Source: a virus
Taxonomy: Duplodnaviria > Caudoviricetes
Length of the DNA stretch: 42,936 bases
Reading direction: 5' to 3' (one strand)
Virus record (IMG/VR): IMGVR_UViG_3300020306_000003
Location: 1 to 42,936 of that record
Part shown: positions 1 to 42,936 of the stretch, one piece after another
Numbering within the stretch: the first letter of the stretch is position 1
Layout: each line of letters begins with the position of its first letter
Notes under the pieces: generated by a model
Database searches by the model: none
What the model was told of the DNA's origin: nothing
What the model saw: only the letters and a program-made list of their open reading frames with translations
Made by a program: the position numbers and the translations under genes

Positions 1-77
1 CAGTAATAAGACCAGGGTGAAGAGCTGATGCGAATTTATTATTCGCAGCCAAGTCAGTCCCTCACAGCCCCTATGCC
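1..77 (+). repeat. 77-bp exact terminal repeat, copy 1 (probable assembly overlap)
   Basis: Identical to 42860-42936; 77 is a common assembler k-mer. Confidence 0.95.
29..47. promoter_or_regulatory. Inverted repeat TGCGAA-N7-TTCGCA, second copy of the attP-like core arms
   Basis: tgcgaa tttatta ttcgca; same arms and 7-bp spacing as 37378-37396; lies between the divergent arms. Confidence 0.5.
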
Positions 78-30886: not shown

Positions 30887-31666
30887 TTAATCATGTAATG
30901 TCGGAATAAACACCCCCTCAATAGACGTTGGCGGCTCCCATTCAACAGGTTTTTCAGCCGTAAAGTCATATTCGTTTTGTCTTAAAATTCTTGCACACCT
31001 AGCTTGAGAAAGAATATCGGGTATATCAGGATCTTTTGCTGCTGCCTTTAAATAAGCAGCTCTAACCTTTTCCCACATTTGCAATTCGCTTGTACAGTCA
31101 GCAAGTAACTTTTTAGCTGTTACAGGGCCGTAGCCTTTTAATCCAGGGAATCCATCTGTAGCATCGCCCGTTAAAATCGTTTGATAAAAAGATTGATTAG
31201 CATCAAATTCTTGTATCTTTTCGATTTTACCTTCAGCGTTTAAATGTAAGCCTGGAATAGTTTTTAGATCTTTATCCCTTGAATAAATAACATCTCCACT
31301 TTCTTGATCTGCAAGGATTCCTACAACATCATCGGCTTCAATCAATGGAAGCGTAATGACTTCAAATGTGTCACGTAACCATTGGCGTAATACTGAATAC
31401 CCTGCTGGCTTTCTAAATTTACGTCTGTTCGATTTGTAATTGGAATAGACACCGTACCTGAAGTTACTGGAGTCACCCAAGGCCAAGAATATCTTATGGT
31501 CTGGGCATAGCTTTTGTATGCGTTCAATCTCTGCGGTAACAGCATGTTTAGCCTCATCTAGGTTTGTTTGATAAGTCCATACTTCTGGAGTCCATTCGCA
31601 TTCATATTCTGCGGATGTCATGGCCCGATAAGCATCGGGTTCAATGTCATAGAAAAGTTTTTTCAT
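30887..31666 (-). CDS. 5'-3' exonuclease (T7 gp6-like)
   Basis: NFR...YKSNR, EADDVVGI, SRDKDLKTIPG, GDATDGFPGLKGYG. Confidence 0.95.
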   Translation of the reverse strand: MKKLFYDIEPDAYRAMTSAEYECEWTPEVWTYQTNLDEAKHAVTAEIERIQKLCPDHKIFLALGDSSNFRYGVYSNYKSNRRKFRKPAGYSVLRQWLRDTFEVITLPLIEADDVVGILADQESGDVIYSRDKDLKTIPGLHLNAEGKIEKIQEFDANQSFYQTILTGDATDGFPGLKGYGPVTAKKLLADCTSELQMWEKVRAAYLKAAAKDPDIPDILSQARCARILRQNEYDFTAEKPVEWEPPTSIEGVFIPTLHD

Positions 31667-34853: not shown

Positions 34854-37289
34854 TCAAGAAAACAAGTAAGGATTTGTTCCAATAAGTCTCGGATTAAGAC
34901 TTCCTTGTTTAGGCATATCAGGTAGTGACAACCCTGTTGACAGCTGAATTTCATCCACAAAACCTAGCAACCAATTAGGGGCGTAAAGCTCGTTAAATGT
35001 GTCGTGAAGTGTCTTATGAGCCACCCCAGCGTTAGCCGCATGTACCGCAAAACAATCGTGATTTGTAAGCACTTGTATGTTTTGTTCCACGGCCTTGTAA
35101 ACGAAGTTAATACAAAAAGCAGAATCCCAACTATGTGTAAAGTTCGCGGCTATTCCTTTATTGGCTTGTGTCGCACATAGAGGTGCATCTGTGGGTTGAT
35201 CTTTAATATTCATCGTTGCATGTTTGCCAAATAACATTGTCTGAATTTTTTTAATTCTTGGTTCTCTATCTGCAATTCTCATGGGCCATCCGCTTTGAGT
35301 TGTCCACTCCAAGGCGTAGCCCTTAGACATTACTTTTCTTGTTACTTTGTGGAGCCATTTTTTAAACTCAAGGCAAGGTTTAATTCTCTGTTTCGTTTCA
35401 TCCCATAAATGACTTGCTAAATATTTCGCAGGGATCGCTACCTCGTATGTGAAATTTTCAAGTGGCACGTATCCAAGGTGTTCATCTAATCGCTCAACCA
35501 AGGAATCACATAAGGACATATATGAACCGCCATACGGAGCTGCAAGGATTGGCTGCTTACATAAAGACCTATTAATTCCTTTCTGAAGCCATATTTGTGC
35601 TAACGCTTTGTCTCTCTCTTCTCCGAACTGGAGATCATGAACCAATCTTTCTGTGACTTTTTCAGCGACAAGGGTGTAAAGATCCCTTCGTTCATCGCCA
35701 AATAAATTGCACTCCCTCCCAACCTTTTCTGACCTCAACAGGGCCGCAAGTATCCCGCAGCCTGAAGTAGTTTGATCGAAGCGAACTGGACACCCTGTTT
35801 TACCTGTTTCAAGTACCTCTTTTACCCCTTTGCAAGCCTGTAAAAATTGCCAAGGATCGTTAGCGTTTCGCCACAATTCAAGCCTTCCAAGTGGATCTTC
35901 TGCCGCTGCCTTCATCAAATCAATATTCTTTCTTCCCCAATTCAAACGCTCATCCCATGACTTTCTTCCATATCCATAATGTCCAGCAGCTCCTTTCAGT
36001 AACCAATCAAAAGCCTCGTCGTTTAATGGCAGCTTTTCAGCAAAGTCCAGCATGGCCTTTTCGTAGTCTGGGCCTTGGTGAGATACATATTTATTAGATG
36101 TATAAAGCCTTGATCTATGGTCAGCGTGGTAAGCCTGATAAACAGTCCTATCTGCTAATCCTTCAGCCTCTTGTAACGCACGTTCAATCTTGATTCTTCT
36201 GGGTCTGTTTTGCTCTCTGTCTCTATGAGCCATTGAAGCAAGACGATTCCTAATCTTTAAGTCTTCTGGAGCTGGATCTTGCCCTAACCGTTCAGGAACA
36301 TCTAAGGGAATCTTCGCACAAGGCCACAAGCCCTCTGTTCCGTTCTCCCATGTATTTCTTTGGCATTCGATTATGTCCCGTTTAACGTGAAGTGGTGTCG
36401 CCTGGAGGTGGTTTGTCGCTACAAATGTTTTTGTTAGCTCTGCTCTTCTGTAATGCTCTATTGCTGTGGTGTCTTTTTCTTCAGCGTCGTGAATTGGAAC
36501 TCTGACAAAACATTCTTCGTTGCCTAATCTTCCTCCTCCGTACAATCCAGGCCAAGGAGCTGGAGGAGATACCATTGCCGAATAAGCAACTTTATAAGTA
36601 GAAGGTGGGCAGCTTTTGATTACTTTTTCAGCGTGATCGGTAGGAACTACAAATCTGGGAGTAGTACGACCAATCTTTCTTGTAATAACTTGAATCAAGC
36701 CTGTATGTATTAAATGATCTAAAAGGAACTGACCAATATGAAGACGACTTAAATCATTAAAAGGAAGAACGGGGCATCCCATCTTCCTCATTATTTCCAT
36801 TGTGCTGATCTTGTTCCGGCTCAAGCCTTGCTTCATTAAGTGCCGCAGCTCCACGGGACTTTTATCTGCCAGCCTCATTAATCGGATCTCTTTCTCAACC
36901 GCAGCTCCTAAGCCTTGACAGAAAGTGGCGATCCTTTGCCTTCTACTTAATTGATCGAGGGTCGCGACCAGGGCGATGGTTGCAACATGCTCTGGAGATT
37001 TAAAAGGATCAAAGAAAGGAATTGCAGCTCCATGAAATCTTGCTTTGTCTGGATTTTCTACAAAATCAATAAAAGTTTTATTTAATCGACTGCTTAAATC
37101 ATCAACTAATAATCCATATAATTTTCTGCCATAAATTAATGCACTCTCTTTTCCTATCTGTTTAAGTTTTCTTTCATTAGTTTTATGTGTTTCTTCTGCT
37201 CTTTTTTCTGCACGTAATTGTCGTGCTAATTGCTCTTTTTCAAGGGTCTGTATATCTTGCAACTCAGAAAAACGGGTGTTTACGACCAC
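34854..37289 (-). CDS. Single-subunit T7-like DNA-directed RNA polymerase
   Basis: DHRSRLY, motif A PVRFDQTTSG, motif B RSLCKQPILAAPYG, NFTHSWDS, motif C HDCF; in-frame GTG 37289 preferred, frame is open to 37472. Confidence 0.95.
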   Translation of the reverse strand: MVVNTRFSELQDIQTLEKEQLARQLRAEKRAEETHKTNERKLKQIGKESALIYGRKLYGLLVDDLSSRLNKTFIDFVENPDKARFHGAAIPFFDPFKSPEHVATIALVATLDQLSRRQRIATFCQGLGAAVEKEIRLMRLADKSPVELRHLMKQGLSRNKISTMEIMRKMGCPVLPFNDLSRLHIGQFLLDHLIHTGLIQVITRKIGRTTPRFVVPTDHAEKVIKSCPPSTYKVAYSAMVSPPAPWPGLYGGGRLGNEECFVRVPIHDAEEKDTTAIEHYRRAELTKTFVATNHLQATPLHVKRDIIECQRNTWENGTEGLWPCAKIPLDVPERLGQDPAPEDLKIRNRLASMAHRDREQNRPRRIKIERALQEAEGLADRTVYQAYHADHRSRLYTSNKYVSHQGPDYEKAMLDFAEKLPLNDEAFDWLLKGAAGHYGYGRKSWDERLNWGRKNIDLMKAAAEDPLGRLELWRNANDPWQFLQACKGVKEVLETGKTGCPVRFDQTTSGCGILAALLRSEKVGRECNLFGDERRDLYTLVAEKVTERLVHDLQFGEERDKALAQIWLQKGINRSLCKQPILAAPYGGSYMSLCDSLVERLDEHLGYVPLENFTYEVAIPAKYLASHLWDETKQRIKPCLEFKKWLHKVTRKVMSKGYALEWTTQSGWPMRIADREPRIKKIQTMLFGKHATMNIKDQPTDAPLCATQANKGIAANFTHSWDSAFCINFVYKAVEQNIQVLTNHDCFAVHAANAGVAHKTLHDTFNELYAPNWLLGFVDEIQLSTGLSLPDMPKQGSLNPRLIGTNPYLFS

Positions 37290-37352
37290 GTTATTCGCAA
37301 CACTCTCGCAATGCCAGCTCTTTTTGGTATCAAAAGAAAGTGTGTGACTTGC

Positions 37353-37367
37353 TCTACGGGGTCTAAG
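37353..37367 (-). promoter_or_regulatory. 15-bp motif copy CTTAGACCCCGTAGA
   Basis: Between the attP-like core and RNAP; right half matches the consensus. Confidence 0.45.
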
Positions 37368-37377
37368 ATGATGCTTA

Positions 37378-37396
37378 TGCGAATTATGAGTTCGCA
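37378..37396 (-). other. Candidate attP core: tRNA(CAU) anticodon-arm mimic TGCGAA-CTCATAA-TTCGCA
   Basis: 6-bp inverted repeats around a 7-bp spacer equal to a CAU anticodon loop; about 180 bp downstream of int. Confidence 0.7.
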
Positions 37397-37511
37397 ACCA
37401 GCCCAATGATAGCAAGGGATCTGAGCATTTTGCGTTGATCGTTTTTAAGGTAGAAAAAATATGTGCTTTCACAGTGCGAACGGTGCGAACTTACTTAAAC
37501 AAAAGTTGTAA

Positions 37512-37584
37512 TGGGGGTCGAGAGGATCGAACTCTCCTGAGCCAAATTATGAGTTTGGTGCGTTCACCAGATCGCTAGACCCCC
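37512..37584 (-). tRNA. tRNA with CAT anticodon (Ile2-lysidine or elongator Met), CCA not encoded
   Basis: Acceptor GGGGGTC/GACCCCC, D arm GCG..TGG..CGC, anticodon arm CCAAA-CTCATAA-TTTGG, T arm GAGAG-TTCGATC-CTCTC, discriminator A; lacks initiator features. Confidence 0.92.
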
Positions 37585-38417
37585 ACAAGAGCATTGTAAG
37601 CATTCGCATGTTCAGATCCATCCATATGAACATATCTAGTACACATCTGAGGATTGCTGTGACCTAACCAAGCAGCGATTTCTATGTTGGTGCAACCCTT
37701 TAGACCTAGATTTGTTGCACATGTATGTCTTGTTGCCTTAATGATAAAAGTCTTGGAAATACCACATTCATCTAGGGCTCGTCGCACCGCATGATGCAAT
37801 TCATTGTCTGATAAAGGCCAAACCAGCTCTCCTCTCATATTTAAAATCTGTTCAACGGCAGCTTTTAAAGCTTTAGGAGTTAAAGGAAGAGTTCTATTTC
37901 CTGTTTTGTTATCGTTATTGGCTTTAAAAAAAGAAACTAATCCTCTTTTTAAGCAGTAATCAGCTTTGGTGTGCCTTCTCATCTCAACAGGTCTGCAACC
38001 CATCTCACATAAAAAAACTAATTCCCTTGCTACATCCTTTCTATTTACTCTTCTCAAATATTCAACGCACAAATCAATTTCATTCTGAGTCCAAATAATT
38101 TGCTTGCGATTTTTAACTGGTAAATTTTTTGGAAATTGAGGTAAGTTTCTTACTCTGCCGTGGACAAGAGCCATTTCTTGAAAAACTCTTAGCTTGCTTG
38201 TCTTGTTATTAATTGTTGCAGGCAAATTATCTTTATATTCGGCTAAAAAATGCCTGTAATCCATAAATCTTCCAGCATCAATATCTTCTACTGGAGTATT
38301 AGGCCCAAAATAATTAACTGCTTCTAAGGCATAAATTCTTGTTGTTCTGGCTCCAGATTGATTTTTCCATTGATGAAGCCAAGCATCCTTAAATGCTTCC
38401 TTGATTGTGTAAGGCAT
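37575..38417 (-). CDS. int: Tyrosine recombinase / integrase
   Basis: GCR, KATRH (K in place of H in HxxR), WLGH, TRYV; 280 aa, apparently no arm-binding domain. Confidence 0.93.
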   Translation of the reverse strand: MPYTIKEAFKDAWLHQWKNQSGARTTRIYALEAVNYFGPNTPVEDIDAGRFMDYRHFLAEYKDNLPATINNKTSKLRVFQEMALVHGRVRNLPQFPKNLPVKNRKQIIWTQNEIDLCVEYLRRVNRKDVARELVFLCEMGCRPVEMRRHTKADYCLKRGLVSFFKANNDNKTGNRTLPLTPKALKAAVEQILNMRGELVWPLSDNELHHAVRRALDECGISKTFIIKATRHTCATNLGLKGCTNIEIAAWLGHSNPQMCTRYVHMDGSEHANAYNALVGV

Positions 38418-38427
38418 TGGTCGTGGT
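38417..38427 (-). promoter_or_regulatory. ACCACGACCA(A) leader motif abutting the int ATG
   Basis: One of six copies in early-gene leaders. Confidence 0.75.
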
Positions 38428-38438
38428 TTGTTTAGTTT

Positions 38439-38681
38439 TTATTTCCAGTTTTTTAAATATGGTTTCATTCGGTCTAAGAATTTTTGTGCTGTTGCTTTAG
38501 TGACATGATCTTCGCCCATAGATTCTCTTTCTTTATTAAGAATTAATTGCAATTCTTTAAGAGCTTCTTTTTCAGGCAAAGAATTAAGCGTTTTAAACAT
38601 ATTTAAAGCATCTACAAATGATTGAGGAATCATGGTTCCATCAATACTTGCAAAAGAATCGGGAATTTCAGGATTAGTCAT
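38439..38681 (-). CDS. Hypothetical protein
   Basis: 80-aa ORF with the leader motif abutting its ATG. Confidence 0.75.
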   Translation of the reverse strand: MTNPEIPDSFASIDGTMIPQSFVDALNMFKTLNSLPEKEALKELQLILNKERESMGEDHVTKATAQKFLDRMKPYLKNWK

Positions 38682-38691
38682 TGGTCGTGGT
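38681..38691 (-). promoter_or_regulatory. ACCACGACCA(A) leader motif
   Basis: Abuts ATG 38681. Confidence 0.75.
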
Positions 38692-38699
38692 TTTGTGGG

Positions 38700-39017
38700 T
38701 TAGATACCCTCAAGCGATCTGATCTTTGCTTTGCCTTTTTTAGAGAGCCTGACTCTGTATCTTCTGCCTTCCTCTGGGTCTATATAGATCTCTACAAGGC
38801 CAAGACAAGTTTCACGATGGCGAACAGTTTCACTGAGGGTGTGGACAATTCTTGAGGCTGATGCATTTGTTACATCAAACCTCTCTTCTATATCTCGATA
38901 CGTGCAACTCCCTTTTTCCGCAATGAATAAAAGAACTTGTGCGTGATGCACTGGAAAATTACCTGGGGCAAGAGAGCCCAATGATTCAAGAGCAGTTGAG
39001 AGTTTAGATAAATCCAT
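38700..39017 (-). CDS. MarR-like winged-helix regulator
   Basis: QVLLFIAE...TYRDIEE...TNASASRIV..L...GLV....DPEEGRRYRVRLSKKGK. Confidence 0.88.
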   Translation of the reverse strand: MDLSKLSTALESLGSLAPGNFPVHHAQVLLFIAEKGSCTYRDIEERFDVTNASASRIVHTLSETVRHRETCLGLVEIYIDPEEGRRYRVRLSKKGKAKIRSLEGI

Positions 39018-39178
39018 TTTTCAGTAGGAGGTGATCTCTTGCGACTCACGGTTCCTTCAATTCGTATTTGTTTACGATCCTGAAGGGGATGTTTGTAAAT
39101 AGCAAGATGGATCTCCCCAGTACGAATTGGGCAAATCAGGCTAAATATACATCTCACCTGTTCGTTAATGTGGTTCAT
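38888..39178 (-). CDS. Possible hypothetical protein
   Basis: 96-aa ORF downstream of a 15-bp motif copy, but overlaps the MarR-like gene by 130 nt. Confidence 0.35.
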   Translation of the reverse strand: MNHINEQVRCIFSLICPIRTGEIHLAIYKHPLQDRKQIRIEGTVSRKRSPPTEKWIYLNSQLLLNHWALLPQVIFQCITHKFFYSLRKKGVARIEI

Positions 39179-39208
39179 GCGACCACCTTATTAGGATTGA
39201 GATATAAG

Positions 39209-39223
39209 TTTACAGGGTCGTGG
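39209..39223 (-). promoter_or_regulatory. 15-bp motif copy CCACGACCCTGTAAA
   Basis: 13/15 identical to the copy at 30864-30878; lies between the two MarR-like genes. Confidence 0.5.
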
Positions 39224-39359
39224 AGTTCCCGTACTGTCTGATTCTCAAGATTGTGATCTCTGTTTCCCATGATGTGACTTGTTTTACAACGCTGTAACCT
39301 TCGTTTACCAAAAGGCCGTAATGAACATCGTTTTAGTTCCGATCTGTAAAGCAATATGA

Positions 39360-39716
39360 CTAAGCAAGGCCAACTTGCTTCATCAAGTCTTCTCCAGTTT
39401 TAGATAAAGAGACTTGATATTTTGGTGCTCCAACTTTTGCAGTCTGGACAAACTTTCTATTTAAAAGATGAATATCAGGTCTAATTAATCCATCTTTACC
39501 GACTCGTGGAGTCATTCTTTCGACAACTCTGGCAATAGATCCATTGTTTGTATTGGTTAAGGTTGCCAGCTCTTCATAAGTTCGAGGCTTGATTGCAACT
39601 TGCAGCATGACCTCGACCTGGAGTGCTGAAGGGCAGGTATGTTTTCTGCTGTTATATCTAAGAGTTTTTAGCAACTCCGACATAGCAGTTAAGGTTTTTT
39701 CTTTAGGCATAGCCAT
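39360..39716 (-). CDS. Second MarR-like winged-helix protein
   Basis: LQVEVMLQVA...TYEELA...NNGSIARVV...YQVSLSKTG; aligns by eye with 38700-39017. Confidence 0.8.
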   Translation of the reverse strand: MAMPKEKTLTAMSELLKTLRYNSRKHTCPSALQVEVMLQVAIKPRTYEELATLTNTNNGSIARVVERMTPRVGKDGLIRPDIHLLNRKFVQTAKVGAPKYQVSLSKTGEDLMKQVGLA

Positions 39717-39859
39717 ATCAAATAAGCTCCAAATCCAAAAACGACAAATGGTTCAATTAGAAACATCACACAATAAATAAAAGCGGGGACGATTACCACG
39801 CCCCCAGTTACTAATAATGTGTGACCTACTAATGCTTTAGGTAGATCTTTTTTTTCCAC
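39689..39859 (-). CDS. 56-aa two-TM membrane protein (MEKKDLPKALVGHTLLVTGGVVIVPAFIYCVMFLIEPFVVFGFGAYLIWLCLKKKP)
   Basis: Read by hand; GTG start with GGAGG 9 nt upstream; fills the gap between ORFs. Confidence 0.65.
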   Translation of the reverse strand: MEKKDLPKALVGHTLLVTGGVVIVPAFIYCVMFLIEPFVVFGFGAYLIWLCLKKKP

Positions 39860-40010
39860 TCTTTTTAACCTCCTCCTGACGCTTTATTGATTCAGCCAAT
39901 AAAAGATCAAAAGCTGCAATGATCTTGTCGATCTTGTTGTTGATTGTTCCGACTGAATTACGAAGCAAATGCAGCTCCTTCTCGATCTCTGAGTTGTACT
40001 GTTTAGGCAT
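39837..40010 (-). CDS. Small coiled-coil hypothetical protein
   Basis: ATG 40010 with AGGAG upstream preferred to 40028. Confidence 0.65.
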   Translation of the reverse strand: MPKQYNSEIEKELHLLRNSVGTINNKIDKIIAAFDLLLAESIKRQEEVKKSGKKRST

Positions 40011-40528: not shown

Positions 40529-41158
40529 TCATAGCCTTATTTGTATAGGCATTAACAGATACTCCAGATCGAAACCTTCTAACCCTTCAACATCACAACA
40601 GGCAGTAAAAAGAATTGGAGTTGTAGGATGATTAGTCACCATTTTCAAAGTTCCATTAGAGTATTTAGTCACCATTTGACAAAACTCTGAAAGATATTTT
40701 GAACTAAAAGCAATAGGTTTTTTAGGCTCATTGCTGAAAGAATCAGGAAATAATTGATTGTAGTTAGGGTAAACACCATCAAAATCCTGTAACTGATGTC
40801 TTTTTTCTAATAGATCTTTATGCTTTCCTTTTCCTCCTATAAATTCAATTGCGTTATCAGTACCGATAATTACATCCTTTGCATAGTTAACTTTTTTCTT
40901 AAATAGTTTGGCATCTAGTTTTAAGCCTATTGAACTATTGACCTTATAAAGATCACTAGCAGTTTTAAAAGGCATGACAAACCTAAAAAGTCTATGTCCA
41001 TCAGTGGATGCAATCTCAATACCTTTATCTGATTTGGTGGCATAGATACATTGAAGCAGTCGTTTTGCCTCGTCAGTACTCGCAAACTGAGCCGCAATAT
41101 GGAGAATAGGAGCCGGTAAACAGGCTTCAATGCCTGTAACCTCCTTATCTGTGGTCAT
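40529..41158 (-). CDS. DNA polymerase III beta-clamp (DnaN)-like protein, partial length
   Basis: IASTDGHRL, DGVYPNYNQLFP, IAFSSKYL, YLLMPIQI match clamp motifs; start ATG 41158 or TTG 41182, since the ORF-track start 41269 crosses a hairpin. Confidence 0.82.
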   Translation of the reverse strand: MTTDKEVTGIEACLPAPILHIAAQFASTDEAKRLLQCIYATKSDKGIEIASTDGHRLFRFVMPFKTASDLYKVNSSIGLKLDAKLFKKKVNYAKDVIIGTDNAIEFIGGKGKHKDLLEKRHQLQDFDGVYPNYNQLFPDSFSNEPKKPIAFSSKYLSEFCQMVTKYSNGTLKMVTNHPTTPILFTACCDVEGLEGFDLEYLLMPIQIRL

Positions 41159-41196
41159 TATCGGCCGTGTAGTAGTAGTCAAAATAAAAAACTCCT

Positions 41197-41207
41197 TTGG
41201 TCGTGGG
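41197..41207 (-). promoter_or_regulatory. Leader motif variant CCCACGACCAA
   Basis: Upstream of the clamp-like gene; one mismatch. Confidence 0.65.
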
Positions 41208-41226
41208 TTTAAATAGATACTCTCAA

Positions 41227-41268
41227 TGAGAGCATCAGGGAACCCCGAAGGGCTCCAGGATGCCGTCA
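41227..41268 (-). repeat. Intergenic UUCG hairpin repeat, copy 3
   Basis: TGA-GCATC-GGAGCCC-TTCG-GGGTTCC-GATGC-TCA on the - strand. Confidence 0.85.
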
Positions 41269-41775
41269 ATCTTCGGGCTCCAATGATGGATCAAAGCAGC
41301 TCAAAGCCTGAGTACTGTAAATGCAGTCAATCCCATAACTACTAGTTAAGTATTCTTCTCGGTAGATATACAATGATGATCCCCTGCAATCGTCCTGAAC
41401 GAACAATTTATTCAAAGGATCTCGGCTTGTGATGGCCTTGGTTACTACATCGACAATTTCTTTCTCTTTATCTTCTGTTTTAAATCTATGGACAAAATGT
41501 TTTCCATCTAATCGGCTGCGTCCTGTAACTCTGCCGTAGATGTTTCCATCATCCTCGTCCCTGTAGATAGTGCCGTTTGTCACATCTTCAAACCAGAGCT
41601 GCAACCATTTGTCCATTTTTCCAAATTCTTTGAACATAGCCGCAGGGATGTTGTACCTCTCCATTGCAATGATTGTTTTTTTCTCGTAGTCAATCAAAGC
41701 GTTTTTGTGTTGCTCTGCTACTTGCTCAGGAGTCAAGCCCCAGGCGTTCACATTGTCTATTTTTAAATCCTCCAT
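41266..41775 (-). CDS. Early hypothetical protein
   Basis: 169-aa ORF flanked by the leader motif and a hairpin. Confidence 0.8.
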   Translation of the reverse strand: MEDLKIDNVNAWGLTPEQVAEQHKNALIDYEKKTIIAMERYNIPAAMFKEFGKMDKWLQLWFEDVTNGTIYRDEDDGNIYGRVTGRSRLDGKHFVHRFKTEDKEKEIVDVVTKAITSRDPLNKLFVQDDCRGSSLYIYREEYLTSSYGIDCIYSTQALSCFDPSLEPED

Positions 41776-42859: not shown

Positions 42860-42936
42860 CAGTAATAAGACCAGGGTGAAGAGCTGATGCGAATTTATTA
42901 TTCGCAGCCAAGTCAGTCCCTCACAGCCCCTATGCC
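42860..42936 (+). repeat. 77-bp exact terminal repeat, copy 2 (probable assembly overlap)
   Basis: Identical to 1-77. Confidence 0.95.

What the first reader, a model, noticed from the sequence alone, without database searches (positions are those of the whole stretch)
37294..37584. attP reduced to a tRNA(CAU) anticodon arm, next to a complete divergent replacement tRNA(CAU)
Seen: 37378-37396 reads TGCGAA-CTCATAA-TTCGCA on the - strand, a perfect anticodon stem-loop with no D arm or T arm around it. About 115 bp away is a full tRNA with the same 7-nt loop but a different stem (CCAAA/TTTGG). Established: tyrosine integrases often cross over in the 7-bp anticodon loop, and attP normally carries the tRNA 3' half so the gene is rebuilt. 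From memory (unverified), cyanobacterial tRNA-Ile2(CAU) has the arm GCGAA-CTCATAA-TTCGC. Inference: integration would break a normally single-copy, essential host tRNA, and the phage supplies a recoded copy that its integrase should not recognise. The lysogen would then depend on the prophage unless excision is precise.
Basis: partly seen in the sequence, partly recalled or inferred. Interest (0 to 1): 0.88.

Follow-up and report, generated by a model that had tools for sequence, protein, structure and literature searches.

The report
Cyanophage breaks host tRNA, carries spare
This marine T7-like phage has a short copy of the anticodon arm of a single-copy cyanobacterial isoleucine tRNA gene right beside its own whole copy of that tRNA, so it likely integrates into the host gene, breaks it and supplies a replacement, a strategy proven in actinobacterial phages but not found by my searches for phages of Prochlorococcus or Synechococcus.

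Summary
Confirmed. The window is a circular 42.9-kb S-SRP02/MedDCM-G9-like T7-like phage. Between integrase and RNA polymerase lie a tRNA(CAU) (37512-37584) and a 17-bp exact copy of the picocyanobacterial tRNA-Ile2 anticodon arm. Junctions modelled with 4 host loci rebuild no tRNA. Of 80 viral relatives, 21 have a whole tRNA-Ile2 plus a core-only site and 41 have a tRNA 5' half and no tRNA; none mixes the two. A conserved upstream motif sits 21 bp (two helical turns) closer in the core-only form. Freshwater relatives show real junctions at a tRNA-Tyr loop. No junction or prophage was found for this marine clade.

Two corrections. In this family attP normally carries the 5' half, not the 3' half. 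The phage tRNA's stem is a natural host allele, not phage recoding, although all 22 phage copies lack the CG pair that their attP cores keep. The integrase lacks the N-terminal domain of its relatives.

This is tRNA-dependent lysogeny as published (Ile2 cases included; same layout in pelagiphage HTVC025P), here in a new host group. Stable lysogeny is unshown. The scan noted a tRNA-Lys case on other DNA.

The parts
37575..38417 (-). Tyrosine integrase, 280 aa. It lacks the ~55-60-aa N-terminal domain of relatives. R142, R230, H254 and Y262 are present and Lys227 stands at the His-II position. Its stop codon is tRNA nt 8-10.
   Evidence: phrog_1 E 1e-26; PF00589; alignments; upstream frames; stop position. 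Catalytic roles are assigned from recalled family motifs.
37512..37584 (-). Whole tRNA(CAU), classed as Ile2 (G3-C70; body of picocyanobacterial Ile2), anticodon stem CCAAA/TTTGG
   Evidence: 9 differences from the GCGAA host allele and 5 from the CCAAA allele, all but nt 46 in compensating pairs; rule and reference sequence from PMC1635315
37474..37490 (-). Direct repeat GTTCGCAC x2 in the left arm, likely extra integrase-binding sites
   Evidence: TTCGCA/TGCGAA occurs 6 times in 37280-37620 against 0.07 expected (P about 1e-6 for the 4 outside the core); a TTCG..TTC pair is kept in 8 of 8 aligned rows
37402..37419 (-). Conserved motif, likely a host DNA-bending-factor site, ending 11 bp before the loop
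   Evidence: A matrix built from 5'-half attPs (gap 31-32 in 41 of 41, leave-in) finds it at gap 10-11 in 20 of 22 tRNA-carrying loci. The host-factor label is inference.
37378..37396 (-). Predicted attP core: 6-bp inverted repeats around the 7-bp overlap CTCATAA (37384-37390); 17 bp identical to the host tRNA-Ile2 anticodon arm
   Evidence: CTCATAA kept at this place in 21 of 21 tRNA-carrying relatives
37283..37299 (-). Right-arm site (CGAATAACGTGGTCG, with a TTCGCA on the + strand at 37294), likely integrase-binding
   Evidence: found in 7 of 7 group A records searched, G407-G413
34854..37262 (-). T7-like RNA polymerase. The likely start is TTG at 37262; the listed 872-aa ORF from 37472 overruns attP.
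   Evidence: phrog_414, match begins at aa 76; start inferred from the annotated start in AP013547
38700..39017 (-). MarR-type regulator upstream of int, as in S-SRP02 and MedDCM G9 phages
38439..38681 (-). 80-aa ORF of no known family inserted between MarR and int, with an 18-nt repeat of the translation start region
   Evidence: (present in L001, absent in L002-L005)
29..47 (.). Second TGCGAA-N7-TTCGCA palindrome (spacer TTTATTA) in the region between the divergent gene blocks; repeated at 42888-42906 in the 77-nt terminal overlap
   Evidence: shuffle mean 0.09; a CGAA-N7-TTCG site 4.1-5.8 kb upstream of att in 8 of 11 related records long enough

Best explanation
The 19-bp palindrome is likely a core-only phage attachment site: the neighbouring tyrosine integrase would cross it with the anticodon loop of the host's single tRNA-Ile2 gene, which would leave that gene in two halves, and the whole tRNA-Ile2 beside it would then supply reading of AUA codons. 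The host is inferred to be a picocyanobacterium, most likely low-light Prochlorococcus. The genome would open between int-tRNA and RNA polymerase. The site likely arose from the family's usual attP, which carries the tRNA 5' half, by loss of about 21 bp once a whole host tRNA had been captured. The captured alleles lack the CG pair of the target stem, which probably keeps the phage's own tRNA from being used as a recombination partner. Shown: sequence, isotype match, single host copy, no rebuilding in silico, family-level crossover at anticodon loops. Inferred: activity of this integrase, expression and lysidine modification of the tRNA, stem avoidance. Open: whether integration gives stable lysogens.
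For: (1) Exact 17-bp match to the tRNA that PMC1635315's supplement lists as cyanobacterial Ile. (2) Three CAT tRNAs in each of 4 host genomes; only the G3-C70 one has this stem. TilS in 5 of 5 genomes; no tRNA-Ile(UAU) found by pattern in 5. (3) Of 80 viral loci: 21 tRNA plus core-only, 41 5'-half without tRNA (6 Ile2, 35 Leu), 5 Tyr 3' half plus whole tRNA-Thr, 13 with no att seen; none mixed. At least 2 origins on the quick tree, with L605 nested among half-type loci. (4) Upstream motif moved from gap 31-32 to 10-11. (5) attL and attR modelled with 4 host loci give no ARAGORN tRNA at two thresholds, while a 5'-half control does. (6) Real junctions in the family: L644 runs int, tRNA-Thr, intact tRNA-Tyr, then host-like coding sequence, and IMGVR_UViG_3300044621_001214 has both ends; identity with the attP form breaks 2 nt past the loop. 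(7) Near-identical integrases (L596 against L587/L588) carry Leu or Ile2 loops with the same GCGGA stem, so the stem is likely what the enzyme reads. (8) 22 of 22 phage tRNAs, of 5 stem types, lack CG at 28-29/41-42; 22 of 22 cores keep it on at least one side.
Against: No junction for this clade: 0 hits in GTDB contigs, metagenomes and IMG/VR; no loose end at the core among those listed for 8 runs (11 rows not shown in 39, one run laid nothing in 79); no marine-clade integrase among the 6 hits in 401 Cyanobiaceae genomes. PMC8776855 found integration but no stable lysogens in T7-like cyanophages (passages). The integrase lacks the N-terminal domain and has Lys at His-II. The window tRNA has G12-C23, which PMC1635315 calls an fMet-like pair. 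No sigma-70-like promoter was found on the - strand in 37000-40000. Some attP half-sites also lack CG (L575 right; L576 and L605 left), so CG is not strictly needed on both sides. CG-less stems are common in other phages' copies of this tRNA, so 5 of 5 types is only suggestive (about 0.03 at even odds, my rough estimate). The 21 loci are close kin, so the Fisher P values overstate independence.
Confidence: 0.7

Rival explanations
1. Integration happens but is transient during lytic infection, as in S-TIP37. The tRNA only bridges AUA decoding while the host gene is split, and no dependent lysogen forms.
For: PMC8776855 passages; no prophage of the marine clade in 401 genomes and no junction in any scan
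Against: A brief split would hardly need a new tRNA gene, because mature tRNAs are long-lived (general knowledge). The tRNA is kept in 21 of 21 core-only loci. Freshwater relatives occur as assembled prophage junctions. A MarR-type regulator is conserved upstream.
Confidence: 0.3
2. The stem difference is neutral: the phage took the tRNA from whichever host it infects, and its integrase also accepts CCAAA or CTGAA targets.
For: Relatives' tRNAs are identical to host alleles; attP half-sites vary widely; 29 of the 150 host rows shown lack CG (counted by eye)
Against: 0 of 22 phage copies carry GCGAA or CCGAA, although these make up 17 of the first 33 small-genome host rows. All anticodon-arm targets seen for the family share GCG-R-A stems. 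No self-deletion joint between tRNA loop and core among the joints listed for 4 runs.
Confidence: 0.3
3. The site is a relic or a plain operator. The shortened integrase no longer integrates and may bind CGAA-N7-TTCG palindromes as a regulator, while the tRNA is kept for lytic translation or against host tRNA nucleases.
For: N-terminal domain lost and His-II changed; second conserved palindrome with an unrelated spacer; ATA is 141 of 490 Ile codons in 16 ORFs; many integrase-free phages carry this tRNA
Against: The 7-bp CTCATAA spacer is invariant in 21 of 21 relatives while flanks diverge, which an operator would not need. Catalytic Arg, Arg and Tyr are invariant in 9 of 9 and 20 of 20 rows. 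Group B keeps the N-terminal domain with the same layout.
Confidence: 0.15
4. The target is another host tRNA with the same loop (initiator tRNA-fMet), or the phage tRNA is a Met tRNA.
For: The fMet loop also reads CTCATAA; ARAGORN labels the gene Met; the G12-C23 pair
Against: The fMet stem is unrelated; the elongator Met loop is TTCATAA with C3-G70; the phage tRNA has G1-C72, G3-C70 and the body of the listed cyanobacterial Ile gene
Confidence: 0.03

Closest known systems
tRNA-dependent lysogeny of actinobacteriophages (Fionnbharth K4, LeBron L1, Gordonia OneUp and Mollymur; PMC10865867)
   Same: Tyrosine integrase, short core (8-17 bp there, 17 bp here) at an anticodon arm, no rebuilding, same-isotype phage tRNA. 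OneUp and Mollymur also target tRNA-Ile2-CAT (Table 2).
   Different: T7-like podophage of picocyanobacteria; tRNA abuts int and attP; integrase lacks the N-terminal domain that the paper says its integrases have; stable lysogeny and tRNA requirement proven there, untested here
T7-like pelagiphages HTVC025P, HTVC011P, HTVC119P, HTVC200P, HTVC019P (bioRxiv 10.1101/410191)
   Same: attP between int and RNA polymerase. HTVC025P has int, whole tRNA, core, RNAP, and its integration disrupts the host tRNA without repair; the authors propose that the phage tRNA is used instead.
   Different: SAR11 hosts, tRNA-Leu or tRNA-Cys; junctions were sequenced there; in the passages I saw there was no test of tRNA requirement and no comment on stem alleles
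T7-like cyanophages P-SSP7 and S-TIP37 (PMC8776855)
   Same: Integrase followed by an attP matching a host tRNA; rebuilding part is the first half of the tRNA
   Different: Their 39-42-bp attP matches the first half of tRNA-Leu, which by my reading rebuilds the gene; no whole phage tRNA is mentioned in the passages seen; integration is transient
S-SRP02-like / MedDCM group G9 phages (Nohivirus S31C1, Oinezvirus S37C6)
   Same: Terminase 77-80% identical to S31-C1 and S37-C6, 58% to S-SRP02; MarR-int-RNAP order. S31-C1 has the same tRNA plus core layout.
   Different: S-SRP02 has a 5'-half tRNA-Leu attP and no tRNA. G9 had no host assigned (PMC3861242); the tRNA evidence here points to picocyanobacteria.

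Membership tests
tRNA-dependent lysogeny | Phage-encoded tyrosine integrase next to attP | tested here: met
   activity of this protein not tested
tRNA-dependent lysogeny | attB overlaps a host tRNA gene, sharing only a short core | tested here: met
   17-bp identity to the Ile2 arm and none beyond; the target is inferred from sequence and from family junctions at tRNA-Tyr
tRNA-dependent lysogeny | No functional tRNA rebuilt at attL or attR | tested here: met
   0 of 8 modelled junctions give a tRNA, the control does; in silico only
tRNA-dependent lysogeny | [quoted passage not shown] | tested here: met
   tRNAscan-SE 2 was not among the tools; one fMet-like pair (G12-C23)
tRNA-dependent lysogeny | Disrupted host tRNA is single-copy and essential | tested here: inconclusive
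   Single match in 277 of 280 genomes; the 3 doubles are whole or contig-end copies. TilS present. Essentiality is inferred.
tRNA-dependent lysogeny | Integration at this site occurs and gives stable lysogens | tested here: inconclusive
   no junction or prophage for the marine clade
tRNA-dependent lysogeny | Phage tRNA is required for survival of lysogens | not testable with these tools
   needs genetics
Lambda-like three-domain integrase | N-terminal arm-binding domain | tested here: not met
   The window protein starts at the core-binding domain; relatives have 55-60 more residues. That this piece is an arm-binding domain is inferred from place and size; Pfam names none and the fold job never returned.
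Canonical tRNA-rebuilding attP | attP carries one whole half of the tRNA | tested here: not met
   met in 41 relatives

The most novel reading that the evidence does not exclude
An arms race at the anticodon stem. Picocyanobacterial hosts change the stems of tRNA-Ile2 and tRNA-Leu(UAA) to escape this integrase family. Marine phages capture those escape alleles as replacement tRNAs that their own integrase cannot cut, delete the tRNA half from attP, and integrate with a Cre/Xer-sized integrase into Prochlorococcus, giving lysogens that cannot lose the prophage except by exact excision. This would be a stable T7-like prophage system in a host where lysogens have not been obtained.
Probability: 0.2. 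Interest if true: 0.8.

Novelty: new variant of a known kind. Interest (0 to 1): 0.55.

Why it matters
It extends tRNA-dependent integration to phages inferred to infect picocyanobacteria, where the purpose of T7-like integrases is unresolved (PMC8776855). PMC10865867 leaves open which came first, rebuilding or tRNA-dependent sites. This one integrase family holds both forms, and the 21-bp shift plus the nested L605 case favour rebuilding first. It gives a likely host to unassigned MedDCM G9-type phages, which long-match attP searches would miss. It names exact junction sequences to screen for and a simple assay of whether host stem alleles confer escape.

Tried and rejected
Junction patterns found nothing: core plus right arm in GTDB contigs, attL in metagenomes and IMG/VR (GCGAA hosts only), attR in both. 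Read laying on 8 runs, all assembled contigs that drop rare variants, listed no loose end at the core; no RNA holder was listed.

RNA polymerase search: 23 of 401 Cyanobiaceae genomes matched. Of the 20 loci read, 4 were int-attP-RNAP phage forms and none was an Ile2 junction. Integrase searches in two genus sets were empty but small (1 and 15 genomes).

My first idea, that the host stem is invariant and the phage recoded it, came from a search biased by the arm itself and was rejected by the unbiased search. A 7-mer search was too short to use. The weak Rfam hits SNORD65 and Plastid-ycf2 were set aside. No solved structure matched the integrase. The structure prediction of a long-form integrase never returned. 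The careful tree did not finish, so only the quick tree is cited, and it warns of long branches.

Paper searches for an earlier description in cyanophages, for stem polymorphism as attB escape and for arm-less integrases at anticodon loops found none; the library lacks most subscription papers. The pelagiphage preprint's supplements (its core alignments) were not seen.

Full report
Observation. The - strand reads TGCGAA-CTCATAA-TTCGCA at 37378-37396, and a tRNA(CAU) with stem CCAAA/TTTGG lies 115 bp upstream at 37512-37584. The arm has no tRNA body around it. Both lie between a tyrosine integrase (37575-38417) and a T7-like RNA polymerase. The window is a circular 42.9-kb phage (77-nt end overlap, 40% G+C). 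Its closest named relatives are MedDCM S37-C6, S31-C1 and Synechococcus phage S-SRP02.

Target. The 17-mer lies in an ARAGORN tRNA in 115 of 120 GTDB hits shown. In Prochlorococcus, Synechococcus and Cyanobium that tRNA has the same body as the phage tRNA. The supplement of PMC1635315 lists this sequence as cyanobacterial Ile, and the paper's G3-C70 rule agrees. Four host genomes each show three CAT tRNAs: initiator, a C3-G70 Met, and this one (for G004 the initiator was seen as a pattern match only). It is single in 277 of 280 matching genomes among 301 searched. TilS is present in 5 of 5 complete genomes, and a pattern search found no tRNA-Ile(UAU) in those 5. Essentiality follows from standard knowledge of AUA decoding and was not tested. 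One caveat: the window tRNA has G12-C23, which that paper calls fMet-like, but it lacks the other initiator marks.

Family. A profile search gave 80 viral loci, sorted. Twenty-one carry a whole tRNA(CAU) and, 100-158 bp on, a bare CTCATAA core. Forty-one carry the 5' half of tRNA-Leu (35) or tRNA-Ile2 (6) ending at the loop, and no tRNA. Five carry the 3' half of tRNA-Tyr plus the whole downstream tRNA-Thr on the other strand. Thirteen showed no site. No locus mixes forms. Two contigs in Cyanobiaceae genomes add 5'-half Ile2 sites. On the quick tree the tRNA-carrying form needs at least 2 origins, and freshwater L605 sits among half-type loci (the careful tree did not finish). A motif found 31-32 bp before the loop in half-type sites is 10-11 bp before it in 20 of 22 tRNA-carrying loci. 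That is a loss of about two helical turns, which suggests a working site kept in phase. Modelled junctions with 4 host loci rebuild no tRNA, while a half-type control does.

In vivo crossover. L644, from a Cyanobiaceae genome, runs int, tRNA-Thr, intact tRNA-Tyr, then coding sequence that I read from recalled motifs as host aroQ and miaE. One IMG/VR record has RNA polymerase after a Tyr half at one end and int before an intact Tyr at the other. So the family integrates at anticodon loops and opens between int and polymerase. Its targets (Leu, Ile2, Tyr) differ in loop but share GCG-R-A stems, and near-identical integrases carry different loops (L596 against L587/L588). The stem is therefore likely the binding site and the loop the overlap. 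For the window's marine clade no junction or prophage was found in any search.

The stem. An unbiased search showed that hosts vary here: GCGAA, GCGGA, CCGAA, CCAAA, CTGAA, GTGGA and others. L558's tRNA equals 7 host genes with CCAAA and L559's equals 5 with CTGAA. So the stem was captured, not recoded. Still, 22 of 22 phage tRNAs (5 stem types) lack the CG at 28-29/41-42, and every core keeps it on at least one side. This fits selection against using its own tRNA, which lies 163 bp away in direct repeat. It is only suggestive, since CG-less stems are common in other phages and three cores lack CG on one side. In 4 complete genomes, 22 of 28 isoacceptors have one stem; Ile2 and Leu(UAA) have four. 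I chose the genomes by their Ile2 allele, so only the Leu result is unbiased, and the comparison covers the 30 best tRNA loci per genome plus Ile2.

The integrase. It starts at the core-binding domain. Groups A and C lack the 55-60 residues that group B and freshwater relatives have. The arm-binding label is inferred, as the fold job never returned. Lys replaces His-II in groups A and B; other substitutions at this position occur in pelagiphage integrases reported to integrate. Core-like TTCGCA words cluster around the site (6 against 0.07 expected), and a second palindrome is conserved about 5 kb upstream.

Comparison. The system works like tRNA-dependent lysogeny (PMC10865867; I read parts 1, 2 and 5 of 8 and passages), whose Table 2 already lists Ile2 cases. 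The same int-tRNA-core-polymerase layout with an unrepaired host tRNA is reported for pelagiphage HTVC025P (10.1101/410191, passages only). PMC8776855 (passages) found integration without lysogeny in T7-like cyanophages. Also seen: PMC1635315 (part 2, passages, supplement rows) and passages of PMC9860041, PMC8790148, PMC3861242, PMC10134795, PMC12361551, PMC2784084 and 10.1101/2020.12.28.424599. Searches found no description for cyanophages, nor of stem alleles as escape. The scan holds one similar note for a tRNA-Lys phage (e1-9764084), which I did not check.

Verdict. The feature is real and is best read as a core-only attP with a replacement tRNA-Ile2 (0.7). The sequence-level criteria of tRNA-dependent lysogeny are met; the genetic ones are untested. 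It is a new variant of a known kind: new host group, captured CG-less allele, shortened integrase, and evidence for the order of evolution. Interest 0.55.

Noticed in passing
window 37575-37584: The integrase stop codon is tRNA nt 8-10 in 16 of 22 tRNA-carrying loci, and nt 38 in S31-C1. tRNA 5' processing would leave a stop-less int mRNA, a possible route to tagging and degrading the integrase.
   Followed up: partly
window 29-47 and 42888-42906: Second perfect core-like palindrome with an AT-rich spacer between the divergent gene blocks, conserved in 8 of 11 relatives; could be an operator or a self-resolution site
   Followed up: partly
L577, L583, L585, L611, L612, L644: Relatives that target tRNA-Tyr carry the whole downstream tRNA-Thr(GGT), which would restore the host Tyr-Thr pair after integration
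   Followed up: partly
G105, G038, G058, G007 (L650-L769): tRNA-Leu(UAA) has 4 anticodon stems in 4 genomes and Arg(UCU) has 3, while 22 of 28 isoacceptors are invariant. Leu(UAA) is a target of this family, and Arg-TCT is listed as a tycheposon site.
   Followed up: partly
window 38439-38681: Unknown 80-aa ORF inserted between MarR and int through a repeated translation start sequence; shared with L001 only among L001-L005
   Followed up: partly
window 40529-41269 and 30887-31666: The phage has a sliding-clamp (DnaN-like) gene and a 5'-3' exonuclease, and no DNA polymerase domain among the 39 ORFs scanned
   Followed up: no
L014 3700-3960 (AP013546): S37-C6 keeps the upstream motif but has an AAGACT..AGTCTT inverted repeat instead of an anticodon arm and no tRNA, so it has a different, unidentified target
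   Followed up: no
L151-L270: Many viral tRNA arrays carry this tRNA(CAU) next to a tRNA-Ile(UAU), which would read AUA without lysidine
   Followed up: no
L614, L616, L620, L621, L625: Family integrases followed by other genes, with no att site or RNA polymerase seen next to them
   Followed up: no
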